From: Eledone cirrhosa
Taxonomy: Eukaryota
Assembly (NCBI GenBank): GCA_964016885.1
Contig: OZ024741.1
Coordinates: 143,406,001 to 143,470,000, forward strand
Length of the DNA stretch: 64,000 nucleotides
Direction of reading: 5' to 3'
This document shows positions 27,487-49,900 of this stretch, one piece after another. The position numbers and the translations under genes are program-made. Under the pieces are notes generated by a model. The model made no database searches, was not told where the DNA came from, and saw nothing but the letters and a program-made list of their open reading frames with translations. Every line of letters begins with the position of its first letter. Position 1 is the stretch's first letter.

Positions 27487-29595
27487 GTAAGTATTGTGAT
27501 TTGGTTTTCTACACCGGTTCTGGTACATTATTTTTTTCTTTGCATCCGTACTCAAACACACACACATACATATAATATGCATCTACACAATTCTAAGTCT
27601 CTATGCCTGTTCTCTTAAAATTAAATAAAATCTTCTGTCATTCGCGTAGTTTCTTAAATCGTTCGTTATATGTACACACACACACACATGTATACATATA
27701 TATATATATATATATAAACACACATATCAATATATATATATATATATATATGTAAAAAATATGTATAGCTAAGGTAATATATCGTACACATGTACAGATA
27801 TACAAAAACCCAACCCTCCCAATTATACAATAGAAAAACTTCACCTGGCAGCTGGTCTCTTTTTTCTTCTTTTTTGTTGCTTCCTTCCCGAATTTTATTT
27901 CCATTTTTTTTTCATTATTTTCTTCTGTCGTTTCAATGCGATTAGTTAAGCTTTTGCATGACTTATTAAAAAACAAAACATTTCAAATTAATTTAACAAG
28001 CTTACTTAAATACAGATTTGGAATTTTATTTATTTATTTAAAAAATTAATATTACATCAAAAGTAAACCTAAAAAGTAACAAAACATTTACTACTACTAC
28101 TAGTTATTATTATTATTATTAATGGTTTCTTTATTGATAATAATAAAATACCAGTCACGCACTGAGGTAGATTTAATCGACTTTCCCTTCCTTCAAATTG
28201 CTGGCCTTGTCCCAAATGTAAAAACCATTATTATTATTATTGTTATTATTATTCAACAACGTAATATTTTTTTTTGTTTTAGTTAATTTTATAAAAAAAA
28301 AATCTTTTTGTTTTAAATTTTAATTCAGGAAAATATTTGTAAGATATATAAGATTATGAACATATTTTATGTATTAATATAGCTATACATAATAAGGGTT
28401 TAGATCGATATACGATCTACCTATATATATATATATATATATATATATATATATATATATATATATATATATATATATGTGTGTGTGTTTCTGTGTGCAT
28501 ATATATATATATATATATACACACATACATACAGATAAATACATAGATATATACATATATACATATGTATACATATATATATATACATCTATATATATAT
28601 ACATAGAGATATATACAGATATATATATATACATATATATATATACATATATATATATATATATATACATATATATATATACATACATATATATACATAC
28701 ATATATATATATATACATACATATATATATATATACATACATATATATATGTACATACATATATATACATATATATACATACATACATATATATATATAT
28801 ACATACAGATATATACATATATATATATATACATATATATATATATATATATACATATATATAGATACATACATATATATATACATACATATATATACAT
28901 ATATATACATACATATATATATACATATATATTAATATATACATACATATATATGTATATATATATATATGTATGTATATATACATATATACATACATAT
29001 ATATACACATATATACATACATACATACATATATATATATACATATATATATACATACATATATATATAGACATATATATACTCATATATATATATATAT
29101 ACATATATATATACACATATATATTCACATACATATACACATATATATATACATAAACATACATATATACATATACATATATATATACATATATACATAT
29201 ATATATATACATATACATACATATATATATATACATACATATATATATACGTATATATATATATACATATATATATATATATATACATATATATATATAT
29301 ACATACATATATATATATATACACATACATATATATACACATATACATACATATATATACACATATACATACATATATATATAGACACATATACATACAT
29401 ATATATATATATACTGCCAGACAGTCCTATGCGAGCAAGACAATCACTCTTGCCTCAAGTGGGAAAACCCCCGTCCAAACCCATGCAAGCGTGGAACACG
29501 GACGTTAAACGTTGATGATGATGATATACATATATATATACATATATATATATACATATATATACATATACATATATATATATATATATATATAT

Positions 29596-30150
29596 GGTGG
29601 CTGCCAACTCGTTTTCGAGTACGGCCACTACTTTATATCCATGTAGGAGAACCCCTACCGATGCGCTGAACGAGTGTGACTTTTTAGTCCAGCCAGCGAC
29701 TTGAAAACTCTGGTACAAACACTACACTTGTGACAATTATTGAAACATAGTGCTGGGCCCATGGTACCATGTGATGACAAGTGCAGAGAGATCTCCAGAT
29801 ATAAAGCAATCCCTGTGCTGTGAAGCTTTTATAGTGAGCAAAGGCACTGCACAAAGCCAGTCCCACTCTCTTAACCAAGATGATATTTACCCAAAAAGAA
29901 GAACAAGTCAACATCATTGGATACCATCAGGGTTGCAGGTGTTATGTCAGAGTTTTCCTTCTAGAATTCTGCCTTGACAAAGGCTAAGGGGTCACCTCTC
30001 CCGGTATTTTTAGGATGGCCATTGATTCTTAAGTGCTCCTTTTCCCCTTGACAGGTTTTGTTTTTAGTCCTGCAGGATGTCCAAAGTCACCCTCCTCACC
30101 AAGAAACCTTGGTGGGGTTGCTAGTTTAGTCGCCAATGACCCGACCATGG
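29596..30150 (-). mobile_element. Unclassified TA-bounded element, one end truncated (see 39531-40139)
   Basis: Reverse complement of 39585-40139 with scattered substitutions and an identical terminus GCAGCCACCA|TATA. Confidence 0.7.
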
Positions 30151-30535
30151 GATATGTATATATATATATATATATACATACTTATATATACACATATATA
30201 TATATACATATATATATATATATATACATATATATACATATATATATATATACACACATATATATATATACACATATATATATATACACATATATATATA
30301 TACACATATATATACATATATATATATACATATATATATATATATACATATATATATATACATATATATACATATATATATGTATATACATATATATATA
30401 CATATATATATATATACATATATATATATATATATACATATATATATATATGTATATATATATATATATGTATATGTATATATATATATATAATATATAA
30501 GAACAAAAGACGGTTAAAAGAGTTCCATGTATTTT

Positions 30536-45943: not shown

Positions 45944-46949
45944 ATATATATATATATATATATATATATATATATATATATACATATATATATATACATA
46001 TATATATACATATATATATATATATATATATACATATATATATATATATACATACATATATATATATACATATATATATATATATACATATATATATATA
46101 TATACATATATATATATATATACATATATATATATATATACATATATATATATATATACATATATATATATATATACATATATATATATATACATATATA
46201 TATATATATATACATATATATATATATAATATACATATATATATATATATATACATATACATATATATATATATACATATATATATATATATACATATAT
46301 ATATATATATATGTATATACATATATATATATATATACATATATATATATATATATATATATATACATATATATATATATATATATATACATATATATAT
46401 ATATATATATACATATATATATACATATATATATATATATATGTATATATAGATATATATATGTATATATATATATATATATGTATATATAGATATATAT
46501 ATGTATATATATATATATATATATATATATATATGTATATATATATATATATGTATATACATATATATATATATATATGTATATATATATATATATGTAT
46601 ATGTATATATATATATATATATGTATATATATATATATATGTATATATATATATGTATATATATATATATATATGTATATATATATATATATGTATATAT
46701 ATATATATATGTATATATATATATATGTATATGTATATATATATATATATATGTATATATATATATATATATATATATGTATATATATATATATATATAT
46801 ATATGTATATATATATATATATATATATATGTATATATATATATGTATATATATATATATATGTATATATATATATATATATGTATATATATATATATAT
46901 ATGTATATATATATATATATGTATATATATATATATATGTATATATATA

Positions 46950-49900
46950 TAAATGTAAGTATGTATGTATACGTACATACATATATGTATACAGACGTAC
47001 AGTAGCATGCACATATATATATATATATACATATATACATACATATGCATACAGGTACACATACATATATGCACGTATCAGTTTAGCGGCGCTAACGTCG
47101 CTTTGTTCGTTTGTAAACAAACTGAACAGCCTGAATTTATGCCATACGGTGTTAAGGCAACCACGTCACCTTTTTGTTCAACACTGACACAGGAACGATG
47201 TACTAGTTTCAAGCTTGTTAGCTATCATCAGCACCGTTTACCCATCTGCCAGATAGTTGAACGTTCGAAAGTATATACTTTCCTTATGAAAATTAACGGC
47301 TGAGCAGCCTAATTTGCATATTGAGTGAGTTAAATCGGTCAGGCATACCGAAAACGATAAATTGAAACAAAATGAAAACGAAATTTCATTTCTCACTCTT
47401 AGTATGGCACTTACTTAAATGTAAGTATGTATGTATACGTACATACATATATGTATACAGACGTACAGTAGCATGCACATATATATATATATATACATAT
47501 ATACATACATATGCATACAGGTACACATACATATATGCACGTATCAGTTTAGCGGCGCTAACGTCGCTTTGTTCGTTTGTAAACAAACTGAACAGCCTGA
47601 ATTTATGCCATACGGTGTTAAGGCAACCACGTCACCTTTTTGTTCAACACTGACACAGGAACGATGTACTAGTTTCAAGCTTGTTAGCTATCATCAGCAC
47701 CGTTTACCCATCTGCCAGATAGTTGAACGTTCGAAAGTATATACTTTCCTTATGAAAATTAACGGCTGAGCAGCCTAATTTGCATATTGAGTGAGTTAAA
47801 TCGGTCAGGCATACCGAAAACGATAAATTGAAACAAAATGAAAACGAAATTTCATTTCTCACTCTTAGTATGGCACTTACTTAAATGTAAGTATGTATGT
47901 ATACGTACATACATATATGTATACAGACGTACAGTAGCATGCACATATATATATATATATACATATATACATACATATGCATACAGGTACACATACATAT
48001 ATGCACGTATCAGTTTAGCGGCGCTAACGTCGCTTTGTTCGTTTGTAAACAAACTGAACAGCCTGAATTTATGCCATACGGTGTTAAGGCAACCACGTCA
48101 CCTTTTTGTTCAACACTGACACAGGAACGATGTACTAGTTTCAAGCTTGTTAGCTATCATCAGCACCGTTTACCCATCTGCCAGATAGTTGAACGTTCGA
48201 AAGTATATACTTTCCTTATGAAAATTAACGGCTGAGCAGCCTAATTTGCATATTGAGTGAGTTAAATCGGTCAGGCATACCGAAAACGATAAATTGACAC
48301 AAAATGAAAACGAAATTTCATTTCTCACTCTTAGTATGGCACTTACTTAAATGTAAGTATGTATGTATACGTACATACATATATGTATACAGACGTACAG
48401 TAGCATGCACATATATATATATATATACATATATACATACATATGCATACAGGTACACATACATATATGCACGTATCAGTTTAGCGGCGCTAACGTCGCT
48501 TTGTTCGTTTGTAAACAAACTGAACAGCCTGAATTTATGCCATACGGTGTTAAGGCAACCACGTCACCTTTTTGTTCAACACTGACACAGGAACGATGTA
48601 CTAGTTTCAAGCTTGTTAGCTATCATCAGCACCGTTTACCCATCTGCCAGATAGTTGAACGTTCGAAAGTATATACTTTCCTTATGAAAATTAACGGCTG
48701 AGCAGCCTAATTTGCATATTGAGTGAGTTAAATCGGTCAGGCATACCGAAAACGATAAATTGAAACAAAATGAAAACGAAATTTCATTTCTCACTCTTAG
48801 TATGGCACTTACTTAAATGTAAGTATGTATGTATACGTACATACATATATGTATACAGACGTACAGTAGCATGCACATATATATATATATATACATATAT
48901 ACATACATATGCATACAGGTACACATACATATATGCACGTATCAGTTTAGCGGCGCTAACGTCGCTTTGTTCGTTTGTAAACAAACTGAACAGCCTGAAT
49001 TTATGCCATACGGTGTTAAGGCAACCACGTCACCTTTTTGTTCAACACTGACACAGGAACGATGTACTAGTTTCAAGCTTGTTAGCTATCATCAGCACCG
49101 TTTACCCATCTGCCAGATAGTTGAACGTTCGAAAGTATATACTTTCCTTATGAAAATTAACGGCTGAGCAGCCTAATTTGCATATTGAGTGAGTTAAATC
49201 GGTCAGGCATACCGAAAACGATAAATTGAAACAAAATGAAAACGAAATTTCATTTCTCACTCTTAGTATGGCACTTACTTAAATGTAAGTATGTATGTAT
49301 ACGTACATACATATATGTATACAGACGTACAGTAGCATGCACATATATATATATATATACATATATACATACATATGCATACAGGTACACATACATATAT
49401 GCACGTATCAGTTTAGCGGCGCTAACGTCGCTTTGTTCGTTTGTAAACAAACTGAACAGCCTGAATTTATGCCATACGGTGTTAAGGCAACCACGTCACC
49501 TTTTTGTTCAACACTGACACAGGAACGATGTACTAGTTTCAAGCTTGTTAGCTATCATCAGCACCGTTTACCCATCTGCCAGATTTGTTTCAACTATCTG
49601 GCAGATGGGTAAACGGTGCTGATGATAGCTAACAAGCTTGAAACTAGTACATCGTTCCTGTGTCAGTGTTGAACAAAAAGGTGACGTGGTTGCCTTAACA
49701 CCGTATGGCATAAATTCAGGCTGTTCAGTTTGTTTACAAACGAACAAAGCGACGTTAGCGCCGCTAAACTGATACGTGCATATATGTATGTGTACCTGTA
49801 TGCATATGTATGTATATATGTATATATATATATATATGTGCATGCTACTGTACGTCTGTATACATATATGTATGTACGTATACATACATACTTACATTTA

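What the first reader, a model, noticed from the sequence alone, without database searches (positions are those of the whole stretch)
28420..46950. (TA)n-embedded retroelement mosaic: nine near-identical RTE fragments plus PLE, SINE and a second RTE, separated by TA arrays
Seen: young RTE pieces at 29414(+), 31515(+), 35127(+), 36264(-), 38326(-), 38705(+), 42113(-), 42819(+) and 43206(-). Nearly every junction runs straight into (TA)n, and several 5' breaks have short AT/TA microhomology (TAT|ATGTAGTGG, CAT|ATGTTGTTT, TCTCTA|TATA). RTE copies outside this zone are heavily decayed. Established: some non-LTR families target microsatellites (Waldo at AC, Dong at TAA); I do not know of a (TA)n-specific RTE. 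Inference: an active RTE lineage that inserts into and perhaps expands (TA)n, producing a self-reinforcing trap. The alternative is a chimeric or misassembled contig end.
Basis: partly seen in the sequence, partly recalled or inferred. Interest (0 to 1): 0.75.

Follow-up and report, generated by a model that had tools for sequence, protein, structure and literature searches.

The report
Jumping-gene pile-up in TA repeats
Nine pieces of a very abundant, still-young jumping gene, plus pieces of several unrelated ones, are stacked in a long TA repeat; all of these families land in TA repeats across this genome, likely because their cutting and priming step favours alternating A and T, so the pile-up is a dense but largely ordinary case, apart from an unexplained pull towards the longest repeats.

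Summary
The mosaic is in the sequence as described: nine LINE pieces (16 of 18 ends in (TA)n), a second LINE, a Penelope-like piece, a tRNA-type SINE and two 607-bp elements; 42% of the zone is TA array against 5.5% genome-wide. The TA bias is genome-wide: 50 of 90 young copies elsewhere run into TA-rich DNA against 5% of random sites. It is neither strict nor special to this family: the preference covers about four bases after the (TGA)n tail, and three other families do the same. That fits the known RTE 'Tn-TA' and tail-pairing signature and known (TA)n targeting by Penelope-like elements. The pieces come from at least four subfamilies with near-identical copies elsewhere, so they are most likely independent insertions. 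No reads could test the junctions, and a gap lies 3.7 kb away. Less ordinary: the youngest copies abut very long arrays about five times more often than array length predicts, the effect fades with copy age, and target duplications are mostly missing. This scan reported the same family in TA arrays on other DNA of this genome.

The parts
28420..46950 (.). Mosaic zone: TA arrays (42% of bases) separated only by pieces of dispersed repeats
28422..29413 (.). Degenerate (TA)n array with C interruptions
29414..29524 (+). RTE1 3' end, 98 bp plus (TGA)4 tail
29596..30151 (-). Truncated copy of a 607-bp non-coding element, 94% identical to 39530-40138; fixed end at 29596
30500..30696 (-). Dispersed TA-flanked repeat piece with a hammerhead-like core motif (motif recalled); likely a Penelope-like end
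30697..31516 (.). (TA)n array, 820 bp
31515..32599 (+). RTE1 piece, 5'-truncated, (TGA)9 tail, 2-bp AT microhomology
32599..35129 (.). (TA)n array, 2531 bp, with blocks of higher-order repeats
35127..36235 (+). RTE1 piece of an older subfamily (95-98% to its relatives), 30-bp 5' inversion, (TGA)5 tail
36266..36925 (-). RTE1 piece, tail-to-tail with the previous one across a 30-bp TA array; 39 other 100% matches listed elsewhere
37124..37345 (.). Dispersed fold-back repeat piece, TA-flanked elsewhere too
37395..37733 (-). SINE with tRNA-like head (Rfam tRNA E=0.15, below threshold) and an RTE-like 3' part
38327..38619 (-). RTE1 3' end, (TGA)7 tail
38705..39328 (+). RTE1 piece of the older subfamily, 2-bp AT microhomology, (TGA)7 tail
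39530..40138 (+). 607-bp non-coding element; relatives sit in (TA)n or (TACA)n arrays; fixed end at 40138; no Rfam match
40205..40998 (-). Penelope-like 3' piece (GIY-YIG-like frame read by eye; no Pfam hit) whose end joins (TA)n genome-wide
41114..41405 (+). Second LINE (RTE2, 28% protein identity to RTE1), (TAGA)n tail, 5' half inverted with a 13-bp overlap, as in twin priming
42114..42743 (-). RTE1 piece, same subfamily as 36266 (1/600 differences) with a different 5' break and tail length
42819..43203 (+). RTE1 3' end, (TGA)6 tail
43205..45946 (-). Longest RTE1 piece: open frame for partial APE endonuclease, RT and PHD finger; 5'-truncated with TATA microhomology; 3'-truncated at a 6-bp match to a TG/TA target
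45943..46950 (.). (TA)n array, 1008 bp, interruptions switch from C to G half way

Best explanation
The zone is a TA-microsatellite island holding nine pieces of a young, high-copy RTE-type LINE from at least four subfamilies plus pieces of other repeat families, likely built by many independent insertions that favour a short alternating ATATA site. Shown: the family is abundant and young genome-wide; its tails join TA-rich DNA about ten times more often than chance; the preference spans about four bases past the tail; other families share it; the youngest copies sit beside unusually long arrays. Inferred: the endonuclease nicks at TA steps, the (UGA)n RNA tail pairs through AU with the nicked AT end to prime reverse transcription, and the truncated 5' end is joined by AT/TA microhomology, mostly without a target duplication. 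Each insertion splits an array and leaves two targets. Long arrays take more hits than their length predicts, and then shrink or are deleted with time. The 43205 copy was likely primed inside its 3' UTR on a GTGTAT target just behind the 42819 tail.
For:: 40 of 40 scored matches at 100% for three queries; of 90 young 3' junctions, 85 start with T, 63 with TA, 50 with TATA, 50 have a TA-step fraction of 0.6 or more (background 4.9-5.1%; 17.6% given AT at the junction). (71 junctions): continuation 0.93/0.77/0.84/0.95 at bases 1-4 against 0.32/0.32/0.48/0.60; no excess at bases 5-8; array of 20 bp or more after 16 of 25 RTE2 tails and 13 of 13 Penelope-like ends that stop at the terminal repeat; 31 of 34 ends of the 607-bp element are followed by ATGTAT or ATATAT; window copies are 0-5% apart and most have 0-1% neighbours elsewhere; 15 of 49 array junctions have 500 bp or more of array against 5.6% (bootstrap upper bound 11.7%, p=3e-4; with three unseen 2-kb arrays added 15.4%, p=0.005). 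Age: 300 bp or more after 21 of 90 youngest, 4 of 37 intermediate, 0 of 28 older copies. L091 is cut at the same 3' UTR site beside an ATACA-type array, and L252 and L343 are cut at TA. PMC6007223 (parts 2-4 of 6) and PMC13295347 (passages) describe TA cleavage and tail pairing for RTEs; PMC8557442 (passages) describes (TA)n targets for Penelope-like clades.
Against: No read evidence for the junctions of this locus (skipped them). In the random stretches only 3 of 9 copies at 88% identity or more, and 0 of 3 at 95% or more, have a 20-bp array behind the tail: lower than 49 of 90, though small. The short motif alone predicts 0.5-1.2 young tails in the zone against 8 seen (zone chosen after the fact), so the length effect or something local is needed and its cause is not shown. 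Young versus intermediate array lengths do not differ significantly (p=0.14-0.41). Only 1 of 10 unique-flank insertions has a duplication of 7 bp or more, unlike typical RTEs. Nicking and priming were not tested. RTE-clade placement was not tested on a tree.
Confidence: 0.75

Rival explanations
1. Long (TA)n arrays extrude cruciforms, are cut by host structure-specific nucleases, and the breaks capture retroelement RNA of any family; the element's own endonuclease is partly dispensable there. This would be the cause of the length effect and can hold together with the best explanation.
For: Excess of very long arrays at young junctions, also after RTE2 tails (5 of 25 with 500 bp or more); target duplications mostly absent; 5' microhomology; internal priming at TA; interruption polarity flips inside four arrays of the zone. 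AT/TA repeats form cruciforms cut in a Mus81-dependent way in yeast (PMC12972899, abstract only).
Against: Duplications are also absent at unique sites with no array. The family encodes an endonuclease with its catalytic motifs in an open frame. Tails are intact and uniform (4-9 units), as in ordinary target-primed insertion. Penelope-like ends show no length excess (0 of 13 with 500 bp or more).
Confidence: 0.2
2. One reading: a (TA)n-specific RTE lineage that itself lengthens the arrays and so builds a self-reinforcing trap.
For: Strong TA bias; longest arrays beside the youngest copies; 8 tails in 18.5 kb.
Against: 41 of 90 junctions have no 20-bp array; preference ends after about four bases; other families share it; no long exact duplications; long arrays lie on either side or both sides of copies, as expected when a ready-made array is split; 5 of 11 background arrays of 300 bp or more have no detected repeat at an edge and only 2 of 11 have one at 98% or more (limited library).
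Confidence: 0.1
3. The zone is a chimeric or misassembled contig end stitched through TA arrays.
For: A 200-N gap at 50626-50825 preceded by a tandem 466-bp unit that folds back at about 49585; no unique DNA was found between the arrays; no spanning record.
Against: Pieces have their own tails, 5' breaks, inversions and microhomologies; one junction (43204) has no array at all and several arrays between pieces are only 30-120 bp; multi-element stacks occur at many other loci; element-to-TA joins appear as loose ends in short-read contigs and Illumina reads (other loci). The window lies inside a 416-Mb scaffold.
Confidence: 0.07
4. One or two insertions were multiplied locally by duplication and inversion through the palindromic TA arrays.
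For: 36266 and 42114 differ at 1 of 600 bases; array polarity flips.
Against: That sequence has 39 other 100% matches over 521 bp; the two copies differ in 5' break and tail length; other pieces are 1-5% apart and belong to other subfamilies.
Confidence: 0.04

Closest known systems
RTE-clade LINEs and SINEs with the Tn-TA insertion signature (Nishiyama and Ohshima 2018, PMC6007223, parts 2-4 of 6 read; PMC13295347, passages)
   Same: One long frame with APE endonuclease and RT, short tandem-repeat tail, cleavage at TA, tail sequence matching the first target bases.
   Different: Here over half of the copies land in TA-rich arrays, target duplications are mostly absent (1 of 10), the T-stretch could not be scored, and a PHD finger follows the RT. 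The last endonuclease motif reads QH, which PMC6007223 reports for plant RTEs only (position assigned by recalled motif order).
(TA)n-targeting Penelope-like elements: Naiad, Hydra, Neptune (Craig et al. 2021, PMC8557442, passages)
   Same: The piece at 40205-40998 ends in (TA)n in 13 of 13 terminal ends; duplications cannot be read in arrays.
   Different: Clade of this piece not determined; Pfam gave no hit on the 137-aa frame.
Microsatellite-specific non-LTR elements Waldo (ACAY), Mino (AC), Kibi (TC), Koshi (TTC), Dong (TAA) (Grandi and An 2013, PMC3812793, passage)
   Same: Non-LTR elements found inside microsatellites.
   Different: Those are described as sequence-specific; this LINE has a weak four-base preference with many other targets. 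The 607-bp element, strand-specific for ATGT/ATAT arrays, behaves more like them.
Lepidopteran RTEs with (TGA)n tails (Tay et al. 2010, PMC2887409, passages)
   Same: (TGA)n tail, many 5'-truncated copies.
   Different: Those are reported as not sequence-specific and flanked by 6-12-bp duplications.
Octopus RTE-2_OV and TE hotspots (PMC9115989, passages; PMC13282606, parts 1-2 of 3)
   Same: Active single-frame RTEs of similar size and windows dense in young elements. That this genome is an octopus is my recalled impression from its repeats and was not tested.
   Different: The text I read does not describe TA-array insertion bias; sequence identity to RTE-2_OV was not testable.

Membership tests
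RTE clade LINE | Single long open frame with APE endonuclease then RT | tested here: met
   1146-aa stop-free frame in natural copy L092; RVT_1 E=8e-32 and Exo_endo_phos_2; L1 endonuclease match E=8e-6
RTE clade LINE | Short 3' UTR ending in a short tandem-repeat tail, no poly(A) | tested here: met
   (TGA)4-9 in 71 copies
RTE clade LINE | Placement in the RTE clade on an RT tree with named references | not tested
   1164 homologues at E<=1e-30, best 43-53% identical with the same domain order, none of the 120 listed named as RTE; the label rests on architecture and recalled motifs
RTE clade LINE (Tn-TA signature) | Cleavage at TA with tail matching the first target bases | tested here: met
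   85 of 90 junctions continue GA with T, 63 with TA
RTE clade LINE (Tn-TA signature) | T-stretch about 10 nt upstream of the duplication start | tested here: inconclusive
   Too few unique-flank sites and no duplication to anchor on; T runs by eye in 2 or 3 of 10
RTE clade LINE (Tn-TA signature) | Target-site duplication of about 7-15 bp | tested here: not met
   1 of 10 unique-unique insertions with 7 bp or more (the 10 include two repeat-like flanks and two with element-derived 5' rearrangements); none long; unreadable in 31 array-array cases. Not filed under the full signature.
Sequence-specific microsatellite-targeting LINE (Waldo/Dong type) | Nearly all copies at a fixed position of one microsatellite | tested here: not met
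   49 of 90 in arrays of 20 bp or more; others in unique DNA, TG/CA arrays or a minisatellite
Penelope-like element (40205-40998) | C-terminal GIY-YIG endonuclease | tested here: inconclusive
   HYIG...R...H motif order read by eye; no Pfam hit
Penelope-like element (40205-40998) | Terminal repeats in direct and inverted tandem forms; (TA)n targets | tested here: met
   Inverted and partial-tandem end copies in many of 24 other loci; 13 of 13 terminal ends join (TA)n
tRNA-derived SINE (37395-37733) | tRNA-like head and LINE-like tail | tested here: inconclusive
   Rfam tRNA 19.3 bits, E=0.15, below gathering score; 3' part 82-88% like RTE1 3' UTR; relatives end in (TGA)n

The most novel reading that the evidence does not exclude
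Long (TA)n arrays act as short-lived fragile sinks: they break at cruciforms, capture LINE RNA by AT microhomology at both ends without target duplication, take repeated hits while long, and then collapse, carrying insertions away. That would tie TA-repeat fragility to retrotransposon landing and turnover in a genome that is 5% TA array.
Probability: 0.2. Interest if true: 0.6.

Novelty: new variant of a known kind. Interest (0 to 1): 0.3.

Why it matters
At its likely value it shows how a known weak TA preference becomes microsatellite seeking in a TA-rich genome, so that several retroelement families pile up in harmless arrays; such zones will confuse assembly, repeat annotation and insertion calling. 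If the length effect reflects host breaks at TA cruciforms, this family, with an estimated ten thousand or more young copies (3 in 960 kb at 95% or more), would give a natural, countable test of whether fragile repeats capture retrotransposons.

Tried and rejected
Read support: six runs were offered, none labelled long-read; laying X1-X5 on 35125-36930 and 42820-43420 left the tail junctions unscored because repeats were skipped. No verdict on assembly. Rfam over the zone gave only TA-driven microRNA look-alikes below threshold (best 150 of 343 rows shown) and nothing for the 607-bp element. Long target duplications as a way to grow arrays: none exact in unique flanks; anchored repeats in arrays are 71-100% alike and equal array similarity; apparent 33-51-bp duplications lie in periodic arrays and were not counted. 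Strand bias of C or G interruptions behind tails: 14 against 21 of 40 arrays, none. Local duplication: rejected. An autonomous partner for the 607-bp element was not found among held loci. Rows dropped before counts: own-window loci; L031-L060 (repeated in L061-L100); copies without a tail (L091; 1 of 29; 2 of 39); Penelope-like ends that run on into the element. The 73-junction total printed includes two random-stretch copies; I use 71. Literature: ten searches listed no paper that by title or abstract start reports an RTE family inserting mainly into (TA)n arrays; Repbase Reports and most subscription journals are not in the library, and no supplements were read, so family notes there may already state it.
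Full report
Observation. The window is G000:C2:143406001-143470000 of a 3.0-Gb animal genome, with a 200-N gap at 50626-50825. Sixteen of their 18 ends meet a TA array. Arrays cover 42% of the zone, against 5.5% of 960 kb sampled evenly from the genome and 0.2-0.9% of four neighbouring 10-kb stretches. 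Every other segment between the arrays is also a dispersed repeat: a 607-bp element twice, a Penelope-like 3' piece, a second LINE with an inverted 5' half, a tRNA-type SINE, a fold-back piece and a piece with a hammerhead-like core.

The element. The longest piece encodes part of an APE endonuclease, an RT and a PHD finger. A natural full-length copy (L092) has a 1146-aa stop-free frame, and several full-length copies carry tandem 5' monomers of about 450-520 bp. The architecture is widespread: 1164 homologues, best hits 43-53% identical. The RTE label rests on architecture and the (TGA)n tail; no tree with named references was built. Three genome searches each gave 40 of 40 scored matches at 100%, so young copies are not confined to this zone. 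Zone copies are 1/600 to 53/1028 substitutions apart and fall into at least four subfamilies. The closest pair matches 39 other copies exactly over 521 bp and differs in 5' break and tail, which argues for independent insertions.

Target bias. Of 90 young 3' junctions outside the window, 85 continue with T, 63 with TA, 50 with TATA; 50 are TA-rich over 20 bases and 49 begin an array of 20 bp or more. Background is about 5%, or 17.6% for sites with AT at the junction. In the first 71 junctions the excess is confined to the first four bases after the tail; bases 5-8 follow background. Of 50 truncated 5' ends, 26 join TA arrays, and 6 of these 26 have 2 bp or more of microhomology against 6.3% expected. 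The bias is shared: 16 of 25 RTE2 tails, 13 of 13 terminal Penelope-like ends, and 31 of 34 ends of the 607-bp element (ATGTAT or ATATAT). Against: in the random stretches only 3 of 9 copies at 88% or more have an array behind the tail.

What the short motif does not explain. TATA sites are 5.3-5.6 times denser in the zone, which predicts 0.5-1.2 young tails, not 8 (the zone was chosen after the fact). Genome-wide, 15 of 49 array junctions have 500 bp or more of array ahead, against 5.6% from length-biased sampling (p=3e-4 against the bootstrap upper bound, 0.005 with three unseen 2-kb arrays added). The share of copies with 300 bp or more falls with age: 21 of 90, 4 of 37, 0 of 28 (youngest against oldest p=0.003, youngest against intermediate p=0.14). 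Long arrays lie on the 5' side, the 3' side or both, and 5 of 11 long background arrays have no detected repeat at an edge. The simplest reading is that long arrays come first, take extra hits and later shrink or are lost; growth after insertion is not excluded without empty alleles. Target duplications of 7 bp or more were seen in 1 of 10 unique-flank insertions, and no long ones.

Mechanism. Shown: the sequence patterns above. Inferred: nicking at TA steps, pairing of the tail's AU with the nicked AT end, 5' joining by AT/TA microhomology. The 43205 copy ends inside its 3' UTR at a 6-base match to a TG/TA target right behind the 42819 tail; L091 ends at the same site beside an ATACA-type array, and L252 and L343 end at TA. 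Internal priming explains this junction without any deletion. The cause of the length effect is open; cruciform breakage of long AT/TA repeats (PMC12972899, abstract only) is the boldest candidate.

Assembly. Reads could not test the junctions. Element-to-TA joins do appear as loose ends in short-read contigs and Illumina reads from other loci, so such joins are not a long-read artefact. Each piece carries its own marks of retrotransposition. The nearby gap and the fold-back 466-bp array keep a small chance of misassembly.

Known systems. TA cleavage with tail pairing is described for RTE-clade elements (PMC6007223, parts 2-4 of 6; PMC13295347, passages). (TA)n is a described target of Naiad, Hydra and Neptune Penelope-like elements (PMC8557442, passages). 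Sequence-specific microsatellite LINEs are listed in PMC3812793 (passage); this family fails that test. PMC2887409 (passages) gives (TGA)n-tailed RTEs with 6-12-bp duplications and no specificity. PMC13282606 (parts 1-2 of 3) and PMC9115989 (passages) report active RTEs and TE hotspots in octopus without TA bias in the text I read; that this genome is an octopus is recalled impression, untested. PMC13645644 was seen as a search listing only and not used. Ten searches listed no paper on an RTE mainly in (TA)n arrays; Repbase notes and supplements were not seen. Earlier unreviewed notes of this scan reached the same reading on other DNA of this genome; I read them after searches had fixed my view, and they are not independent support.

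Verdict. Real, dense, and mostly the product of known preferences in a TA-rich genome. The pull to long arrays, its decay with age and the missing duplications are worth a genome-wide follow-up. Interest 0.3; new variant of a known kind.

Noticed in passing
L092:2246-5683 and window 45600-45640 (-): The last endonuclease motif reads SQH, and QH in 70 of 71 homologues where the pattern could be called (49 of 120 not called). PMC6007223 reports this D-to-Q change for plant RTEs only. Position assigned by recalled motif order.
   Followed up: partly
window 39530-40138 and 29596-30151; L122-L145: A 607-bp non-coding element with one fixed end and no tail, strand-specific for ATGT/ATAT arrays, often in local stacks; 4114 first-look candidates. 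No Rfam match, partner unknown. It is a stricter microsatellite seeker than the LINE.
   Followed up: partly
window 46950-50625: A 466-bp unit in 5.7 tandem copies, then 2.2 inverted copies from about 49585, then the 200-N gap; the unit is a dispersed TA-flanked repeat elsewhere. May be a fold-back contig end.
   Followed up: partly
L071, L074, L079, L080: Full-length copies start with several tandem 5' monomers of about 450-520 bp, recalling the monomer promoters of rodent L1 (recalled).
   Followed up: no
L098, L099, L100 (C1:7.4-7.9 Mb): Young copies joined to an 18-19-bp minisatellite, two of them at the same ATGTCAG phase.
   Followed up: no
window 37734-38327, 41406-42114, 45943-46950: Interruptions in the TA arrays switch between C and G part way, as if array halves were inverted or folded back.
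   Followed up: partly
window 41110-41405 and L187: The second LINE has a 5' inversion with a short overlap; L187 shows a very similar inversion.
   Followed up: no
window 15811-16340, 23819-27086, 53954-55635, 60982-61774: Older relatives of the LINE at 67-82% identity; two end beside TA-rich DNA.
   Followed up: partly
window 3951-4361 (-): A 136-aa open stretch with a cysteine pattern and no Pfam hit; possibly a DNA-transposon remnant.
   Followed up: no
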